In this document: positions 1,965 through 29,431 of the stretch, one piece after another | Position numbering within the stretch: position 1 is the first letter of the stretch | How the letters are laid out: each line of letters starts with the position of its first letter | Virus record (IMG/VR): IMGVR_UViG_3300017766_004476 | Location: 76,413-112,741 of that record | Origin: a virus | Lineage: Duplodnaviria > Heunggongvirae > Uroviricota > Caudoviricetes | Reading direction: 5' to 3' (one strand) | Length of the DNA: 36,329 nt | Position numbers and translations under genes: made by a program | The notes under the pieces: generated by a model | Seen by the model: the letters and a program-made list of their open reading frames with translations, nothing else | Database searches by the model: none | What the model was told of the DNA's origin: nothing

Positions 1965-4208
1965 TTAAGAGAATGTCCAATTCATTTGGGTATTTTCAAC
2001 TGGTGCGCTAGCAGACCCTAAAACTGCAGGAGTAACAATAACACCCTCTCGTAAGAAGGCATAATCACCTGATGATGCATCTAACACAGTTGAAGTACAA
2101 GAGAAATCATCCCAATATACGCTACTGGTCGTACCGCCATATGCATCAACATAGAATTCTACAAATCCTGTTTGAGTCGGTGTGATTGCTAAAGTAAGCT
2201 TTTCCCATACGCCTGATGCAGCTGTCATTAAGACAGACTGATTTACATTAACACCTGATAATTGATCAACCGGACATTTAAATCTTCCAGTAATATTCGT
2301 ATTATTGCGGTACATCCATACACTTGCAGAAAGAGGTAAATTAGCCTGACAAAGGACATGTCCAATTCTTTGAGTAAGAGGATATAGATCATCTCGTATA
2401 GTTGATGTTGGAGACAGCTTCCACGAAATACCTGTAGTGCCATGAATAATAGTTGAATCTGTAGTTATCAGACCATTATCAGTATATATAAAATGGCTAT
2501 CAGGCACTCCTTGTTCATTAATAGAAATGATTCGAGCATGCTCATAATCTGTATAAGTATTGACAATGGTTGCTTCTCCTCTTCTAAAATTATACAAATA
2601 TATTTCTGAAGGACCAGCACCTAATGTAAAGCATCCAACAGTATTTGAATATGTCGAGAGATTATACATCAAGGTGTTGTATGAATTAATAGGTGCAAAG
2701 GCCACATTAGAATTTAAAGCTATAACAGGATCATAGAATGTATTATTTGAGCATGTGGTAAATGCAAGACCTCTTGATGTATTACGAGTAAATTTTACAT
2801 TATACAAAGCACAGTCTCTCATTGCTGTTGCATCAAGACCATCAGAAGCATTATTACTAAAATCGACTGCAGAAAAGGTAGAAGCCCAGTTCACGTTTGA
2901 ATTCCAGCCGTCTGCGACATTCGAATAGAGTAGCATATTATTAACCTCCCACCCTACACCTCGTGTAAACGTTGTACCGGCACCGCTGGTATTCGCCCAA
3001 CACTTTACAAATTTAAGACGGCGGCCATGCGTTGCAGCCATGTTTAAGCTGTAAGCAGCACCAGTATGAGAGGTCCCACCATCATTATATATTTCAAGAA
3101 AATTGCAATTATTATTGCTGGTGTAATAACTGCAATTTGCCCGAGAGGTTATAAATCTTGAAAACTTCAAATAATTTGTATTAGACAGGAAGAACACATT
3201 ACCATATGCATTTAATGGTGAAAAGAATGTAACAGCACCTGCAGGCTGTGTTGTCATATCTGTCTTATTCCATCCCCCGCTAATATTAATGTAGTTATTG
3301 GCAGACCCATTAGCCATAAACGTAAAGATATTGTTAAGGGCAACAATTTGCATTCCTAATGGGATTGGATCTCTATAATATACTGGGGCAGTTTCTGTAG
3401 TCCCAACATACCCTCTACTTGCAGTACCAGCAGAGGAATTCGGTTGACCTTCAATCAAGATTTTTGTATTTTCAACTGCACGAATTGCCCACCAAGTCGG
3501 ATCTGCTTCAGTATTTTTACCTATAATTCCTTGAAGGTTGATATTATTTGTTGCAAAGACATTATCAATATGAAACGTAAATGCACCAGGGTCAACCGAT
3601 GAAGTTATAGCAATAGAACTTATGTTTGTACCAAACGTTCCTCTAATTGTTATAGGGATCCAGGTGTTAGCTGCTACGGTACCGGGCGGTTTACCTGCTG
3701 ATACATAGAGTGTATTAACTGGTACAGCACCTAAGCCGTCAGAACACAAATTAACTCTGAGTGCATCGATATTAATAGATGCAGTAACAAAGTATAACCA
3801 GAAGCTTATTGCACTGTAAGGTGAGAGGTCACGTACTGCAGTTAATGGATAATACCCTAAATTAGTATCTGCAGCCCATCCTGCTGCAACAGTAAACACA
3901 GACGAATTAGCTCCTTGTTTACGGGTAGTGCTCGTAGAGGCGGTTACACCAGACCCTGCAGTCCATGCACCATCATAATAGAGATGCTGTACAGGGTTTG
4001 CAGTTAATGTGACGAATGTACCTAAATTTGTCCAGGCACCATTATCTAAATTAATAGGATTATCAGACTGCATTACTCTAATTTCATCACCGGCAGATGC
4101 AACAGATGTTAAACTTGCACCGCTCAAAGTCTTCTTTCGAGTTGCAAAAGTTAATCCGTTATTAGCATCATTTCCGCTGAGATAGTCTACGTAAATTGTT
4201 GAAGGCAT
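1965..4208 (-). CDS. putative virion/tailspike-like protein with a central parallel beta-helix region
   Basis: 747 aa, rich in G/S/T/N; repeated short beta-strand/Asn-ladder segments (e.g. LYSNVADG, FSNNASDG, FTRNTSRG); clustered with other structural-type genes. Confidence 0.6.
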   Translation of the reverse strand: MPSTIYVDYLSGNDANNGLTFATRKKTLSGASLTSVASAGDEIRVMQSDNPINLDNGAWTNLGTFVTLTANPVQHLYYDGAWTAGSGVTASTSTTRKQGANSSVFTVAAGWAADTNLGYYPLTAVRDLSPYSAISFWLYFVTASINIDALRVNLCSDGLGAVPVNTLYVSAGKPPGTVAANTWIPITIRGTFGTNISSIAITSSVDPGAFTFHIDNVFATNNINLQGIIGKNTEADPTWWAIRAVENTKILIEGQPNSSAGTASRGYVGTTETAPVYYRDPIPLGMQIVALNNIFTFMANGSANNYINISGGWNKTDMTTQPAGAVTFFSPLNAYGNVFFLSNTNYLKFSRFITSRANCSYYTSNNNCNFLEIYNDGGTSHTGAAYSLNMAATHGRRLKFVKCWANTSGAGTTFTRGVGWEVNNMLLYSNVADGWNSNVNWASTFSAVDFSNNASDGLDATAMRDCALYNVKFTRNTSRGLAFTTCSNNTFYDPVIALNSNVAFAPINSYNTLMYNLSTYSNTVGCFTLGAGPSEIYLYNFRRGEATIVNTYTDYEHARIISINEQGVPDSHFIYTDNGLITTDSTIIHGTTGISWKLSPTSTIRDDLYPLTQRIGHVLCQANLPLSASVWMYRNNTNITGRFKCPVDQLSGVNVNQSVLMTAASGVWEKLTLAITPTQTGFVEFYVDAYGGTTSSVYWDDFSCTSTVLDASSGDYAFLREGVIVTPAVLGSASAPVENTQMNWTFS

Positions 4209-20448: not shown

Positions 20449-20874
20449 TGGTGGACCCGGCGAGAGTTGAACTCGCGTGCTAAACTTAATTCTACCTTAC
20501 ATTGTACAAGCTTATTCTGTTATTATACAATCACTGACTAGAACAGACACCACCCAGTAATCGTTTCCTAAAATTGGATAGAAAGAAACCAAATTAGTAA
20601 AGTGTTTCTAGCTTTCTAATGTTACAAGATTTACTTTATTAGAATCAAGTAGTCCCGGCGAAACAGCACTAGGCCATTACGACTTGAGGTTGAGCAACGA
20701 ATGCGCCCTTGATGCTGCGGACGAATCCTGCAACAGAGTTTGCAACGGTGACACCTGCATTATTTGCATTTTTAGCATTTAATTTTTTACCACGAGAGTT
20801 TTAACGAGGCCAACGTAGTCTCCTCGGCTTGTGGTCACGATATAATTACCTTTAGTCGAAACCAGTACGAGCCC
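20449..20874 (-). ncRNA. ssrA: transfer-messenger RNA
   Basis: 5' GGGCTCGTACTGGTTTCGAC; 3' GCGAG-TTCAACT-CTCGC-CGGGTCC-ACCA; G3-U70 alanine determinant; internal tag frame 20669-20776 after AAAAAATTAAAT. Confidence 0.93.
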
Positions 20875-21644: not shown

Positions 21645-22500
21645 TCGGCGTGAGAATACCGCTTGTTAGTTAGGTCTTTTATTCGATTATTACCTCCTTG
21701 CGAGAGGCTTTCCGAACTTTTCCACGCTTCACAGCGTATCCTAACAGTGCTGCCTTTTTTAGAGTGAGGCTTTAACACTCTTCATCATAACACCTTCAAC
21801 CGTCATTCTACCGCCAACCTTGCGAGCTGTTCGAGGGAATTACCCCCTACGTGCGAACTCAGATTAATCATCTCAGACCTTGCGAGTCTTCGACAACCTC
21901 AGTTACCCTTGCGAGCCTAAGGCTTAAGCACCTTCATGCTATGATAGGAACCGGCTTTGCGTTTTTGCTATTAGATTAATACAATTTAATTTTTTTGCAC
22001 TATACAGTGATGTGCGATTCCCTGCGTTTCATAACCTTTTGGATTACAAAATGCGCAACACCACATAACTTTCCCTTACGGGTACTCATCGATACTTTGA
22101 AATTCAGGGTATTGTAAAGCAGCACCCCTCTTTTCGCGTAATGATCGTAAGCTCTTACTTGTTATCGTTCGAACCCACTATCTGTGCTTTAGTCTTTAAC
22201 TTGCGATGTTTGGCATAAACTAGTGTTCTCGGCGCTACCGTTAGAAGTCTTATGGCACCAGCGTTGCCCATGCCTTAAAACCGTTTCTAATTCCATCTTC
22301 GAGTATAGCTCAACCTTTTGAGTTAAACTTACAAGACTTACACTTTGTATAAATGTCCTATTCGTTAAATAGGCGCGGAACTGTATAGAGTTCACGCTTT
22401 AAATACCCTTACGGATATCTATCTTATCCCTTGCTAAGCTACCACCTACCAAGAAACCCTCCTGCGAGGTAAGGATGTCATACCACCCTTAATATTTGAC
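21645..22500 (-). ncRNA. large structured ncRNA, GOLLD-like (boundaries approximate)
   Basis: About 850 nt without a credible ORF, higher GC than the genes; four exact CTCGCAAGG GNRA-hairpin cores (21696, 21818, 21878, 21907) plus CCGTAAGG hairpins near 22075 and 22408; runs straight into tRNA-Trp. Confidence 0.6.
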
Positions 22501-28142: not shown

Positions 28143-28146
28143 ATTT

Positions 28147-28371
28147 AACACAGCCGTAGCCAGAATTTTGTTTTATCCTATCATTTGACTAAGCACCAAC
28201 CCGGACCTACCATAACGAGAAGCACTACTCATCGGTCCTGTTTGGCTTGCATCTACTATTTGTGGTATTAACGAGTAAATTTCATTCGCCACTACTTTAT
28301 ACTCTCCCATCAGCTGCTTTGATGTTCTGAACTTCCTCAGATATTTCTATCCGCGATAGGTCGCTTATGTT
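28147..28371 (-). ncRNA. rnpB: compact RNase P RNA
   Basis: CR-I GAGGAAGTTCAGAA and CR-V ACAAAATTCTGGCTA form a complete 8-bp P4 with the bulged U; P2 CCTATC/GATAGG; P3 CGGATA-GAAA-TATCTG; P5 CATC/GATG; P6 AAGCA/TGCTT; GCAAGCCAAA and GGTCCGGGTTGGTGCTT match the P15 region. Confidence 0.85.
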
Positions 28372-29134
28372 AAATTTTCTTTAAGCCGCATTCATGACAA
28401 ATATATCCATCCCATGCAGGAAAGCCACATTGTTCACAACTTTTAAGTACTTCCTGAGATTCGTTAATGTCCTTTTCTCTAGTTGAGACTCCTGGTGACT
28501 TTCGAGGTTCTCTAATATCTACCCCAGCCGCACGTAAATGCAAATTGACTTCTGAATCATGCAGAGTTGGGTCATTTGTTTCTGCATCATTACACATCTT
28601 ATCTAAACCAGCTTGTTGAAGCCTGCGAGTCTGCTCTTCACCTAAACTCACTAATGCAGCTCTGAGTTCTTCTTTAGGAACTTCTGCTACTTCACATCCC
28701 GGATCAGGATATCCTGGATGCTTTTGAACGTTTGTATAATCTAAATTGTATCCTGTTCTAGATTCTTTAATACGAGGAAAGATACAATTAATAGTGTCTT
28801 TCCATTTTTTCTTACATTCTTCTACATTTATATTACCGTAAATGTGTTGTGCTTCAGTTATATATTCCTCACCTATCTCAAGTAGGGAGTTATATAGATC
28901 TTCTCGAGGTATTGGTATGAGATGGTGGCTACTCACCATTACTTTAGCATCGCATGATTCATCTGCTGGTTGCTCTACCCTTTTCATGAAAAGATCATGA
29001 GCAATCTGACTATAACAGCTATTGCAAATATGATACTTCCAAACACTTCCGGTAATCTTATCAGGTGGAGAAAATAACAAACCACCTGGTTCGTTTATCT
29101 CTTTATGACACACATCACAATTAACTTTTAACAT
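28370..29134 (-). CDS. hypothetical protein with N- and C-terminal zinc-ribbon motifs
   Basis: CDVC...CNSC and CEQC...CHEC; start moved to MLKVNC because the longer frame begins in a tRNA. Confidence 0.65.
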   Translation of the reverse strand: MLKVNCDVCHKEINEPGGLLFSPPDKITGSVWKYHICNSCYSQIAHDLFMKRVEQPADESCDAKVMVSSHHLIPIPREDLYNSLLEIGEEYITEAQHIYGNINVEECKKKWKDTINCIFPRIKESRTGYNLDYTNVQKHPGYPDPGCEVAEVPKEELRAALVSLGEEQTRRLQQAGLDKMCNDAETNDPTLHDSEVNLHLRAAGVDIREPRKSPGVSTREKDINESQEVLKSCEQCGFPAWDGYICHECGLKKI

Positions 29135-29255: not shown

Positions 29256-29293
29256 ATCGACGGGATTTCACTATTGTTCCACCTATTCTTCTT

Positions 29294-29364
29294 TGAGCGT
29301 GCGCCATACACTTCCAGCCCAAGTTATCTGGTGGGCTAGGTTGGAGTCGAACCAACTCTTCTCA
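29294..29364 (-). ncRNA. circularly permuted tRNA-like element
   Basis: Order on the minus strand: TGAG, T arm (GTTGG-TTCGACT-CCAAC), CTAGCCC-ACCA, 8-nt linker, GGGCTGG, D-like arm (GTG-TATGGCG-CAC), CTCA. Confidence 0.65.
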
Positions 29365-29431
29365 GTATACAAATAGAATGTCTATCCTATATTCTATTAT
29401 GCAGATAGCAAGTCTGCTGTGTAGAATACTT

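What the first reader, a model, noticed from the sequence alone, without database searches (positions are those of the whole stretch)
29256..29430. Circularly permuted tRNA-like RNA (3' half precedes 5' half)
Seen: a perfect T arm, CTAGCCC-ACCA, an 8-nt linker (GATAACTT), then GGGCTGG, which pairs with CTAGCCC, a GG-containing D-like arm, and CTCA closing on the upstream TGAG. The anticodon-stem analogue opens into flanks that can pair further (TATTCT/AGAATA) around two extra hairpins. There is no anticodon loop. Known: this topology occurs in two-piece tmRNAs, bacterial YrlA Y RNAs and algal permuted tRNAs. G3-C70 and the lack of a tag frame argue against tmRNA, and no Ro60/Rsr gene is in the window. 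Inference: a tRNA-mimic or decoy RNA, possibly opened by RNase P into a chargeable two-piece molecule.
Basis: partly seen in the sequence, partly recalled or inferred. Interest (0 to 1): 0.78.

Follow-up and report, generated by a model that had tools for sequence, protein, structure and literature searches.

The report
Permuted tRNA-Tyr-like gene in phage
Inside the tRNA gene cluster of an uncultured T4-like freshwater phage lies a complete tyrosine-type tRNA whose two parts are encoded in swapped order; it most likely makes a tRNA look-alike rather than a working tRNA, a layout known from bacterial and phage Y RNAs but here without their usual handle or partner protein.

Summary
On the minus strand, between tRNA-Gln and tRNA-Leu, lie a canonical T arm, acceptor 3' strand, ACCA, an 8-nt linker, acceptor 5' strand, D arm and a 4-bp anticodon-stem closure. 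The unconstrained fold gives this cloverleaf, and my chance estimate is about 3e-4 per genome.

One correction: the 7 nt before the stem (UUGUAUA) are an anticodon loop. Joining only natural bases, 1-31 to 32-76, gives a 72-nt sequence that ARAGORN calls tRNA-Tyr(GUA). The gene is therefore an exact permutation, [32-76]-linker-[1-31].

A covariance model built from 21 permuted tRNA-like modules found beside Ro60-like (DUF2828) genes of other phages ranks this element first in the window (30.5 bits). However:
- Rfam's YrlA, tmRNA and tRNA models do not match it.
- It lacks the conserved UAGG...CAGCA...CCUG handle.
- No Ro60, DUF2828 or RtcB gene is in the 112.7-kb record, which is about 65% complete.
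- The only other copy is 100% identical, so covariation cannot be tested.

Best reading (0.45): a non-decoding tRNA mimic, opened by RNase P into a CCA-ended two-piece RNA. Rivals: neutral rearrangement relic (0.25), Y RNA with an unseen partner (0.12), true permuted tRNA-Tyr (0.08). This scan has noted similar permuted phage tRNA mimics on other DNA.

The parts
29389..29429 (-). 5' hairpin directly after tRNA-Gln: an 8-bp stem GUAUUCUA/UAGAAUAU enclosing ACAGCAG (29420-29414) and an inner 5-bp hairpin. Whether it belongs to the element is uncertain.
   Evidence: MFE fold. The CAGCA core resembles the handle motif of DUF2828-linked phage RNAs, but the flanking invariant positions do not fit: PWM score -14.4 against 1.8 to 14.8 for the family.
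29373..29388 (-). Spacer AGGAUAGACAUUCUAU(U). It has no detectable remnant of tRNA positions 1-31.
   Evidence: Local alignment of the 5' flank to positions 1-31 is no better than shuffles (4831 of 5000 shuffles score as high).
29366..29372 (-). Anticodon-loop equivalent U32-A38 (UUGUAUA). The anticodon GUA (Tyr) lies at 29370-29368. Position 37 is U instead of the usual purine.
   Evidence: ARAGORN cloverleaf of the natural-base join.
29357..29365 (-). C39 (29365), the 3' strand of the anticodon stem UGAG (29364-29361), and the 4-nt variable region AAGA (29360-29357).
29340..29356 (-). T arm GUUGG-UUCGACU-CCAAC with a canonical loop. It is 17/17 identical to the T arm of a gut-phage tRNA-Tyr (L013).
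29329..29339 (-). Acceptor 3' strand CUAGCCC, discriminator A73 and the encoded CCA (A76 = 29329).
   Evidence: Most tRNAs of this array also encode CCA.
29321..29328 (-). 8-nt linker GAUAACUU joining A76 to G1. The predicted RNase P site is 29321|29320.
   Evidence: Sequence. ACCA or GCCA followed by a 4-11-nt linker recurs in six modules of other phages. Cleavage itself is inferred.
29293..29320 (-). tRNA positions 1-31: acceptor 5' strand GGGCUGG, A8 A9, D arm GUGU-AUGGC-GCAC, G26, anticodon-stem 5' strand CUCA, A31.
29256..29292 (-). 3' flank. It is a copy of a motif (AGRUG, RGAAC, GUGAA-AUCY) that recurs in front of tRNA genes in this phage, and it runs up to the 5' end of tRNA-Leu(CAA). 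It is probably a separate element.
   Evidence: Five minus-strand copies in the tRNA region. The closing helix differs between copies yet stays paired. The motif was not found in about 0.7 Mb of other phage loci.

Best explanation
The element is an exact circular permutation of a tRNA-Tyr(GUA)-type gene, laid out as positions 32-76, then 8 nt, then positions 1-31. It lies inside a phage tRNA operon.

Proposed mechanism:
1. It is transcribed with the neighbouring tRNAs and folds into a tRNA L-shape. The acceptor end is closed by ACCA plus an 8-nt loop. The anticodon end is open between A31 and U32.
2. RNase P cuts 5' of G1 (29321|29320). This could be the host enzyme or the RNase P-like RNA the phage encodes 0.9 kb downstream.
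3. 3' exonucleases trim the 8-nt tail back to CCA.
4. The two pieces stay paired.

The product is a CCA-ended, nicked, tRNA-shaped RNA that cannot decode. It would act as a tRNA mimic: a competitor or decoy for proteins that bind tRNA(Tyr), or a nuclease-resistant scaffold like the tRNA-like domain of Y RNAs.

Shown here: the sequence, the fold, the exactness of the permutation, and the likeness to permuted modules of other phages. Inferred: transcription, every processing step, and the function.
For: - All tRNA helices are intact and in tRNA register, and the unconstrained MFE recovers them.
- A chance origin is about 3e-4 per genome.
- The natural-base join is called tRNA-Tyr(gta) by ARAGORN. 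Eight joins with artificial loops are also called tRNA.
- The flanks carry no significant remnant of the missing halves, so the permutation is exact to within about 1 nt. By my reasoning, two independent deletions would give that in only about 4% of cases.
- The same module order exists beside DUF2828 genes in many phages: T arm, acceptor 3' strand, loop or NCCA-linker, acceptor 5' strand, D arm. Twenty modules have 18 different acceptor helices, all 7/7 paired, against 3.3/7 when partners are shuffled.
- Six of those modules carry ACCA or GCCA plus a 4-11-nt linker, as here.
- Model R1, built from 21 of them without this element, ranks it first in the window at 30.5 bits, E about 1e-6.
- Published precedent: YrlA tRNA-like domains occur in bacteria and 22 phages, and M. 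smegmatis YrlA is cut by RNase P and receives CCA (PMC4201824).
- After a cut at G1 the two pieces gain 12.6-14.2 kcal/mol by staying together.
- An RNase P-like RNA lies at 28145-28373 (Rfam RNaseP_arch, 44.3 bits, E 3.6e-10, below the gathering score of 84).
- No terminator-like site lies inside the element on its strand.
- The element is identical in a second metagenome contig that differs elsewhere, so it is not an assembly artefact.
Against: - No diverged orthologue was found, so conservation and covariation of this element are untested. The one other copy is 100% identical against a background divergence of only 0.1-0.2%.
- 30.5 bits lies in the range where junctions of tandem tRNAs also score.
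- Rfam YrlA does not match, although it does match the comparison modules.
- There is no conserved handle, no second handle RNA and no Ro60-like gene in 112.7 kb.
- The encoded CCA is not specific evidence, since nearly all tRNAs of this array encode it.
- The tRNA cluster holds several other irregular tRNA-like sequences, so debris is plausible here.
Confidence: 0.45

Rival explanations
1. Neutral relic. A tandem duplication of a phage tRNA-Tyr gene was followed by loss of the outer parts. The remnant is transcribed passively and has no function of its own.
For: - Duplication followed by loss is the standard route to permuted genes.
- The cluster contains tandem near-duplicate tRNA-like genes and several irregular tRNA-like sequences.
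- A8, U37 and a 5-nt D loop are departures from working tRNAs.
- No orthologue, partner or handle was found.
- The encoded CCA and the short spacer come automatically with tandem tRNAs.
Against: - Both breakpoints fall at 31|32 to within about 1 nt, with nothing lost or duplicated, and the flanks show no decayed remnant. That would be a coincidence of a few percent.
- All 20 stem pairs are intact.
- Relative to the nearest tRNA-Tyr, the acceptor 5:68 pair changed on both sides, C-G to U-A. That change could predate the rearrangement.
Confidence: 0.25
2. Y-RNA type: the tRNA-like module of an RNA bound by a Ro60-like protein. The protein would be encoded in the unsequenced third or so of the phage genome, or be the host's Rsr. 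UAUUCU/AGAAUA would serve as a degenerate handle and ACAGCAG as the CAGCA box.
For: - The order of parts matches the DUF2828-linked family: 5' strand, 1-2 nt, CAGCA, spacer, T arm, acceptor hairpin, D arm, short spacer, 3' strand.
- Nearly all of the 21 permuted modules examined there sit in such a handle.
- Phage TROVE proteins with a tRNA-like partner are in print (PMC4201824; PMC7824862).
- The record is only about 65% complete.
Against: - Positions invariant in the family are not met here: U two nt before CAGCA, G3 and U1 of UAGG, A/U after CAGCA, and the CCUG end.
- The long-range 6-bp helix loses to the local hairpin by about 4.7 kcal/mol.
- No TROVE or DUF2828 gene was found, even with a custom HMM built from 63 phage proteins.
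- No other handle RNA is in the genome.
- There is no GNCGAA motif and no RF02553 hit.
Confidence: 0.12
3. Genuine permuted tRNA-Tyr gene. The flanks are cut away, A31 is joined to U32 by an RNA ligase (the phage encodes Rnl1-like and Rnl2-like enzymes), RNase P and 3' trimming open the acceptor end, and a 72-nt decoding tRNA-Tyr(GUA) results.
For: - The permutation is exact and the join is called tRNA-Tyr(gta).
- U33 and GUA are in register, and the loop matches the CUGUAAA/CUGUAAC loops of the nearest phage tRNA-Tyr genes at 5 of 7 positions.
- The T arm and acceptor are closest to phage tRNA-Tyr.
- ARAGORN finds no other tRNA-Tyr in the 112.7-kb record.
- The record encodes a T4 Rnl1-like and an Rnl2-like ligase. 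From established knowledge, Rnl1 seals breaks in tRNA anticodon loops.
Against: - U at position 37, A at position 8 and an A31.C39 mismatch are very unusual in working tRNAs.
- Bacterial tRNA-Tyr normally has a long variable arm, and this one has 4 nt.
- The flanks form no bulge-helix-bulge or other recognisable cut signal, and no ribozyme family matches.
- No polynucleotide kinase-phosphatase or RtcB was found.
- No bacterial or phage pathway for maturing permuted tRNAs is known.
Confidence: 0.08
4. Processing punctuation. The tRNA-shaped fold only serves to direct RNase P and 3' processing so that the upstream hairpin RNA and the downstream leader motif plus tRNA-Leu are separated, like t-elements in plant mitochondria.
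For: - It sits between two tRNAs in an apparently terminator-free stretch.
- It is flanked by a 5' hairpin and by a recurrent structured leader motif.
Against: - Both neighbouring tRNAs already supply RNase P and 3'-end sites.
- A minimal acceptor/T-arm hairpin would be enough, whereas the D arm, anticodon stem and loop are all kept.
Confidence: 0.08

Closest known systems
YrlA-type Y RNAs of bacteria and mycobacteriophages (Rfam RF02553; Chen et al. 2014, PMC4201824)
   Same: Both have a circularly permuted tRNA-like domain: variable region, T arm, an acceptor stem closed by a loop, then the D arm, with the RNA ends on the anticodon side. M. smegmatis YrlA is cut by RNase P in that loop and receives CCA.
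   Different: - Here there is no RF02553 match.
- There is no GNCGAA Ro-binding motif and no rsr gene.
- CCA is encoded rather than added.
- The anticodon stem and a full 7-nt anticodon loop are kept, so the gene is a complete tRNA in permuted order.
- The D-arm sequence differs from the nearly invariant YrlA D arm.
Handle-bearing permuted tRNA-like RNAs beside DUF2828 (Ro60-like) genes in phages. Examples: Synechococcus phage BUCT-ZZ01 ON615601.1 and 80 IMG/VR loci, L055-L134. I found no paper that names this family.
   Same: The module order is the same. Some members have ACCA or GCCA plus a 4-11-nt linker, for example L106 1100-1160, whose T arm differs at 2 of 17 positions. They lie in or next to phage tRNA clusters. 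The model built from them scores this element at 30.5 bits.
   Different: Those RNAs are clamped by a conserved 8-9-bp helix, UAGG...CCUG, with U-N-CAGCA-W, and they lie next to the protein gene. Rfam YrlA detects them weakly. This element has none of these features, but it does have a tRNA-register anticodon stem and loop.
Circularly permuted tRNA genes of Cyanidioschyzon merolae and other algae (Soma et al. 2007, from my own knowledge; reviewed in PMC3400036 and PMC4090602, listed, not read)
   Same: The 3' part is encoded before the 5' part, a short linker joins the CCA-side end to position 1, and the permutation is an exact one of a complete tRNA.
   Different: In algae the flanks form a bulge-helix-bulge motif. 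The splicing endonuclease cuts it and the ends are ligated through a circular intermediate. Here there is no such motif and no such enzyme is known in bacteria or phages. Position 37 is U.
Two-piece (permuted) tmRNA. One example turned up here in cyanophage BUCT-ZZ01, where ARAGORN reports tmRNA*.
   Same: The T arm, acceptor 3' strand and CCA are encoded upstream of the acceptor 5' strand. The mature form is two base-paired pieces.
   Different: - This element has a true D stem.
- It has no room for pseudoknots or a tag reading frame before tRNA-Leu.
- G3-C70 replaces G3.U70.
- Neither ARAGORN nor Rfam calls a tmRNA here.
- The phage already has a one-piece tmRNA.
Phage T4 stable RNAs rnaC and rnaD (species 1 and 2 RNAs), encoded in the T4 tRNA cluster, function unknown
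   Same: They are small non-tRNA RNAs encoded directly after a tRNA in a T4-type tRNA cluster. rnaD has an invariant block containing CACAGCAGA, a 9-mer also present in the 5' hairpin here.
   Different: There is no permuted tRNA module in rnaC or rnaD. In rnaD the CAGCAG box lies on the 3' side of its helix, whereas here it lies on the 5' side. A shared 9-mer is expected by chance at about 0.08 (my estimate).

Membership tests
YrlA (Rfam RF02553) | Match to the family covariance model | tested here: not met
   There is no RF02553 hit at E <= 10 in a 281-nt search or at E <= 5 over 8.3 kb. As a positive control, five DUF2828-linked phage modules score 33-46 bits.
YrlA (Rfam RF02553) | GNCGAAN0-1G Ro-binding motif near the 5' end (PMC4201824) | tested here: not met
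   The motif is absent from 29431-29256 by inspection. The nearest string is GUCGAU at the 3' end.
YrlA (Rfam RF02553) | Encoded within about 4 kb of a Ro60/TROVE gene on the same strand | tested here: not met
   PF05731 has no match in the 112.7-kb record. The record is about 65% complete, so a distant gene cannot be excluded.
YrlA (Rfam RF02553) | Permuted tRNA-like domain: V, T arm, loop-closed acceptor stem, D arm | tested here: met
DUF2828-linked handle RNAs of phages | Terminal 8-9-bp helix UAGGNNNN...NNNNCCUG with U-N-CAGCA-W after the 5' strand | tested here: not met
   The CAGCA core is present, but the flanking invariant positions fail. The PWM score is -14.4 against a family range of 1.8 to 14.8, ranking 42nd of 66 ACAGCA sites in the phage's own genome.
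DUF2828-linked handle RNAs of phages | Adjacent DUF2828 gene | tested here: not met
   Pfam PF11443 gives no match. A custom HMM from 63 phage proteins, run with --max against six-frame ORFs, has a best E-value of 0.39.
DUF2828-linked handle RNAs of phages | Permuted tRNA-like module matching the family's module model | tested here: met
   R1 scores 30.5 bits, E about 1e-6, the top hit in the window. Training sequences score 40-73 bits, and tandem-tRNA junctions also reach 24-35 bits.
Permuted tRNA gene (algal/archaeal type) | Exact permutation of a complete tRNA, with a linker between the CCA-side end and position 1 | tested here: met
   Joining 1-31 to 32-76 gives tRNA-Tyr(gta) by ARAGORN. 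The flanks are unrelated to the missing parts.
Permuted tRNA gene (algal/archaeal type) | Bulge-helix-bulge motif formed by leader and trailer at the junction | tested here: not met
   The folds show only a 5-bp AUUCU:AGAAU or G.U-rich helix, with the anticodon loop as a roughly 10-nt one-sided bulge.
Permuted tRNA gene (algal/archaeal type) | Circular intermediate and a mature joined tRNA | not testable with these tools
Two-piece tmRNA | tRNA-Ala-like acceptor (G3.U70), tag reading frame and pseudoknots after the acceptor 5' strand | tested here: not met
   The pair is G3-C70. Only 65 nt separate G1 from tRNA-Leu. ARAGORN and Rfam give no tmRNA call.
Canonical tRNA (Rfam RF00005) | Contiguous cloverleaf | tested here: not met
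   There is no RF00005 or ARAGORN call on the native sequence. It is recognised only after in-silico un-permutation.

The most novel reading that the evidence does not exclude
This is a working circularly permuted tRNA-Tyr(GUA) gene in a bacterial virus. The transcript would be trimmed at both flanks and A31 sealed to U32 by the phage's own Rnl1- or Rnl2-type ligase. RNase P, possibly the phage-encoded one, would open the CCA-linker-G1 loop, giving a decoding tRNA. It would be the first permuted tRNA gene outside algae and archaea, and it would give phage RNA ligases a biosynthetic role alongside their repair role.
Probability: 0.07. Interest if true: 0.9.

Novelty: new variant of a known kind. 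Interest (0 to 1): 0.55.

Why it matters
Permuted tRNA-like domains are known as parts of Ro60-bound Y RNAs, and complete permuted tRNA genes are known only from a few algae and an archaeon. This element sits between the two. It is a complete, exactly permuted tRNA-Tyr body with an encoded CCA, inside a T4-like phage tRNA operon. It has no Y-RNA handle and no Ro60-like gene in reach, and a phage-encoded RNase P-like RNA lies next door.

If it is expressed, it would show that phages use free-standing tRNA mimics. That could mean a decoy for tRNA-directed host defences, although this role is inferred and not shown. Less likely, it would show that a bacterial virus can mature a permuted tRNA.

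It also gives a concrete test substrate for the neighbouring mini RNase P candidate.

Tried and rejected
**Searches for orthologues**
- An exact 25-mer in IMG/VR found nothing.
- An acceptor-junction pattern in IMG/VR gave 34 hits, all terminator-like hairpins or coding sequence with no T arm.
- A lineage-specific tRNA-Leu D-arm pattern in IMG/VR found nothing.
- Megablast and blastn against GenBank phages matched only T arm and acceptor regions of ordinary phage tRNAs and one permuted tmRNA.
- Neighbouring proteins used as anchors found no relatives in IMG/VR. The adjacent 254-aa protein is alone among 5.8 billion proteins.
- The RNR gene found only a 25-kb fragment of the same phage, which lacks the tRNA region. 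The nearest GenBank phages are below 40% identity.
- My first metagenome pattern was wrong: I wrote four Ns where the sequence has three. Its empty result says nothing.
- The corrected T-loop plus D-arm pattern found one true relative, L135, which is 100% identical in the element. The three other matches are a coding-region hit and two ordinary tRNA arrays.
- A D-arm-plus-UGUA pattern over 185,579 prokaryote genomes gave five random hits and no tRNA.

**Readings considered and rejected**
- Membership of the ACAGCA-handle family.
- Direct repeats flanking the module, and decayed remnants of the missing tRNA parts in the flanks. Neither is significant.
- A known ribozyme or riboswitch in the flanks. 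No Rfam match.
- A promoter or terminator inside the element. Nothing above shuffles.

**Steps that failed or were not done**
- One simulation timed out and was replaced.
- A covariance model of whole handle-plus-module elements was not built, because MAFFT misaligned the acceptor and the 3' handle.
Full report
**Setting**

The window is the last 36.3 kb of a 112,741-bp IMG/VR virus record, estimated at about 65% complete. Almost all genes lie on the minus strand. The window holds:
- a one-piece tmRNA at 20449-20874 and a GOLLD RNA at 21647-22064;
- an Apyc1-like gene and a CoaD-CoaE fusion;
- a long tRNA cluster from about 26.8 kb to the end.

Elsewhere the record encodes T4 Rnl1-like and Rnl2-like RNA ligases. 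Earlier notes of this scan call it a T4-like freshwater phage. The finding lies in the 176-nt gap between tRNA-Gln(CUG), 29506-29432, and tRNA-Leu(CAA), 29255-29178, both on the minus strand.

**The observation**

Read on the minus strand, the gap contains in order:
- a 5' hairpin (29429-29389) and a 16-nt spacer;
- UUGUAUA-C (29372-29365) and UGAG (29364-29361);
- AAGA, then a canonical T arm (29356-29340);
- CUAGCCC-ACCA (29339-29329) and the linker GAUAACUU (29328-29321);
- GGGCUGG (29320-29314), AA, and the D arm GUGU-AUGGC-GCAC (29311-29299);
- G, CUCA-A (29297-29293), and a 37-nt 3' flank.

The unconstrained MFE of the 176 nt contains all four tRNA helices in permuted order. I estimate 1e-5 as the chance that random sequence after a tRNA 3' half supplies the acceptor partner, a GG-bearing D arm and the closing stem in register. 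That is about 3e-4 for the whole genome. A strict structural scan of both strands of the record finds only this instance. Most tRNAs of the cluster encode CCA, so the CCA alone is not special.

The 7 nt before C39-UGAG have a pyrimidine at 32, U33, GUA at 34-36 and A38. I joined 29320..29293 directly to 29372..29329 without adding a base. ARAGORN calls the resulting 72-mer tRNA-Tyr(gta), with a full cloverleaf, a 7-nt loop and a 4-bp anticodon stem plus an A31.C39 mismatch.

- Joins with four arbitrary loops are also called tRNA. The body is therefore tRNA-grade whatever the loop.
- Among 167 distinct tRNAs in the loci I held, the nearest is a gut-phage tRNA-Tyr (L013). Its T arm is identical at 17/17 positions. 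Acceptor pairs 1-4 and 7 are the same, pair 5:68 has changed on both sides, and A73 is shared.
- The flanks show no significant similarity to the 'missing' parts and form no significant direct repeat.
- The gene is therefore an exact permutation, [32-76]-8 nt-[1-31].
- ARAGORN finds no other tRNA-Tyr in the record.
- Departures from working tRNAs are U37, A8 (every other tRNA in the cluster has U8), a 5-nt D loop, and a 4-nt variable region where bacterial tRNA-Tyr has a long arm.

**Known families**

Rfam gives no hit on the element for YrlA, tmRNA, tRNA or any ribozyme, even at E <= 10. The Ro-binding motif GNCGAA described for YrlA (PMC4201824) is absent. The record has no TROVE gene, no DUF2828 gene and no RtcB.

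Following a lead from earlier notes of this scan, I looked for the phage RNA family that carries a 'stem plus ACAGCA' handle and confirmed it independently.
- Synechococcus phage BUCT-ZZ01 has a DUF2828 gene preceded by such RNAs.
- The protein has 259 relatives in IMG/VR. I fetched 80 of these loci.
- The handle consensus is UAGG-N4-5, Y-U, then A/U/G-CAGCA-A/U, and it ends in CCUG.
- Many of these RNAs enclose permuted tRNA-like modules. Twenty modules carry 18 different acceptor helices, all 7/7 paired, against 3.3/7 when the partners are shuffled.
- Nearly all of the 21 modules examined sit in the handle.
- Six modules have ACCA or GCCA followed by a 4-11-nt linker, as here.
- Rfam's YrlA model detects these modules weakly, at 33-46 bits. 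They are therefore YrlA-like.

A covariance model built from 21 modules, with this element left out, ranks this element first in the window: 30.5 bits, E about 1e-6, full length. That score is below the training set (40-73 bits) and in the range where tandem-tRNA junctions also appear. Here, however, no complete tRNA lies on either side.

The handle test fails. Only the CAGCA core matches, the invariant flanking positions do not, and the PWM score ranks 42nd of 66 ACAGCA sites in the phage's own genome. No other handle RNA exists in the record. This element is therefore like the tRNA-like module of YrlA-type RNAs but is not a member of either family.

**The flanks**

The 3' flank is one of five minus-strand copies of a motif made of AGRUG, RGAAC and GUGAA-AUCY. 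Four of the copies lie just upstream of tRNAs. The closing helix differs between copies yet stays paired: GAUAGAU with AU-C-CUAUC, AAGAGA with UCUCUU, and GGAU with AUCC. I did not find the motif in about 0.7 Mb of other phage loci, and Rfam does not know it.

In the MFE, the closing helix of this copy uses GGAU at 29386-29383, upstream of the tRNA-like module. I cannot say whether that is meaningful.

**Relatives**

I found no diverged orthologue; the searches are listed under Tried and rejected. One metagenome contig, L135 (4,213 nt), is a strain variant.
- It is 99.8-100% identical over most of its length.
- Thirty-six differences are packed into the RNase P-like RNA.
- ORF254 carries 24 differences and a deletion.
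- The element and its three neighbouring tRNAs are identical.

This shows the element is not an assembly artefact. It gives no signal of selection, because the expected number of differences in 176 nt is about 0.3.

**Mechanism**

Rfam's archaeal RNase P model matches 28145-28373 on the same strand at 44.3 bits, E 3.6e-10, below the gathering score.

The acceptor and T-arm stack with RCCA is the classical RNase P substrate, and YrlA of M. smegmatis is cut in the equivalent loop (PMC4201824). After such a cut the two pieces would stay together, gaining 12.6-14.2 kcal/mol over the separate monomers. No terminator-like site lies on the element's strand. All processing steps are inferred.

**Weighing the readings**

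The exactness of the permutation, the intact stems and the existence of a large class of permuted tRNA-like modules in phages argue for a functional RNA. U37, A8 and the lack of any cut-and-join signal argue against a decoding tRNA. The absence of a handle and a partner argues against a Ro60-type particle.

| Reading | Confidence |
|---|---|
| Free-standing, non-decoding tRNA(Tyr) mimic opened by RNase P | 0.45 |
| Neutral relic | 0.25 |
| Y RNA with an unseen partner | 0.12 |
| True permuted tRNA-Tyr | 0.08 |
| Processing punctuation | 0.08 |

**Novelty**

Permuted tRNA-like domains in phage and bacterial Y RNAs are published (PMC4201824; PMC7824862), and this scan has noted several phage examples on other DNA. 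I found no paper on permuted tRNA genes in phages. This case is a new variant: complete, exactly permuted, CCA-encoding, and without a handle or a partner gene.

Noticed in passing
window 28145-28373 (-): An RNase P-like RNA lies directly upstream of tRNA-Leu(GAG). Rfam RNaseP_arch scores 44.3 bits, E 3.6e-10, over the full model length but below the gathering score of 84. Compared with strain variant L135 it carries 36 differences in about 229 nt, while the surrounding DNA is about 99.9% identical. That pair could be used for a covariation check.
   Followed up: partly
window, minus strand, GUGAAAUC at 29271-29264, 32140-32133, 32477-32470, 32574-32567, 35327-35320: A recurrent structured motif: a closing helix of variable sequence, then AGRUG, an optional hairpin, RGAAC, an optional hairpin, and GUGAA-AUCY. 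The closing helix differs between copies but stays paired. Four copies lie 8-24 nt before a tRNA 5' end. It has no Rfam match and was not found in about 0.7 Mb of other phage loci.
   Followed up: partly
window 35305-35230 (-): A 76-nt tRNA-like sequence that ARAGORN and Rfam both miss. Its acceptor stem GGGCUAG/CUAGCCC-GCCA has the same 3' strand as the permuted element. It also has a tmRNA-like GUCGAUUCGAC segment, a 4-bp stem with loop CUGUCUA, and a non-canonical T loop.
   Followed up: no
window about 35570-35495, 34485-34410 and 32110-31940 (-): Further tRNA-shaped genes that neither ARAGORN nor Rfam calls. Several have UGCAAAU- or UGUAAAU-type T loops, and two are tandem near-duplicates with odd D arms. 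The real tRNA count of this phage is higher than the tools report.
   Followed up: no
window about 32290-32200 (-): A D arm, an anticodon-like hairpin and a T-arm-like hairpin with a 10-nt loop are followed by a short hairpin (CUAAU/AUUAG) instead of an acceptor 3' strand. This sits just before a leader-motif copy. It may be another rearranged tRNA-like piece.
   Followed up: no
L020 (Synechococcus phage BUCT-ZZ01, ON615601.1 108000-120000): This T4-like cyanophage has an unannotated DUF2828 (Ro60-like) gene preceded by handle RNAs. It also has tRNA-like genes with an insertion in the anticodon arm, and a circularly permuted two-piece tmRNA (ARAGORN tmRNA*). All lie within about 6 kb and several are annotated as hypothetical proteins.
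   Followed up: partly
L137 (Ga0172380_10036750), reverse strand about 1146-1262: A normal-order tRNA-shaped RNA whose D arm (GUGUAUGGCGCAC) is identical to that of the permuted element. Its anticodon stem encloses a roughly 55-nt insert ending in UUCAGCAAA. It lies directly after tRNA-Gln in a tRNA array.
   Followed up: partly
L017 (phage T4, NC_000866) 3054-3172 (-), with L139-L142: In five Tevenvirinae the T4 species 2 RNA (rnaD) keeps invariant 5' and 3' blocks around a variable middle hairpin. The 3' block is AUCACAGCAGAAACGGCGCAC. The CACAGCAGA 9-mer also occurs in the 5' hairpin of this element. It may be chance.
   Followed up: partly
window 28374-28940, compared with L135: In the strain variant, the orphan 254-aa zinc-ribbon-like ORF (28370-29134) is largely deleted and what remains has diverged. 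The gene appears dispensable or rapidly replaced.
   Followed up: no
G000 C1:43806-44975 (-): The phage encodes an SPFH/Band-7 (stomatin-like) protein. Here the gene lies about 60 kb from the element.
   Followed up: no
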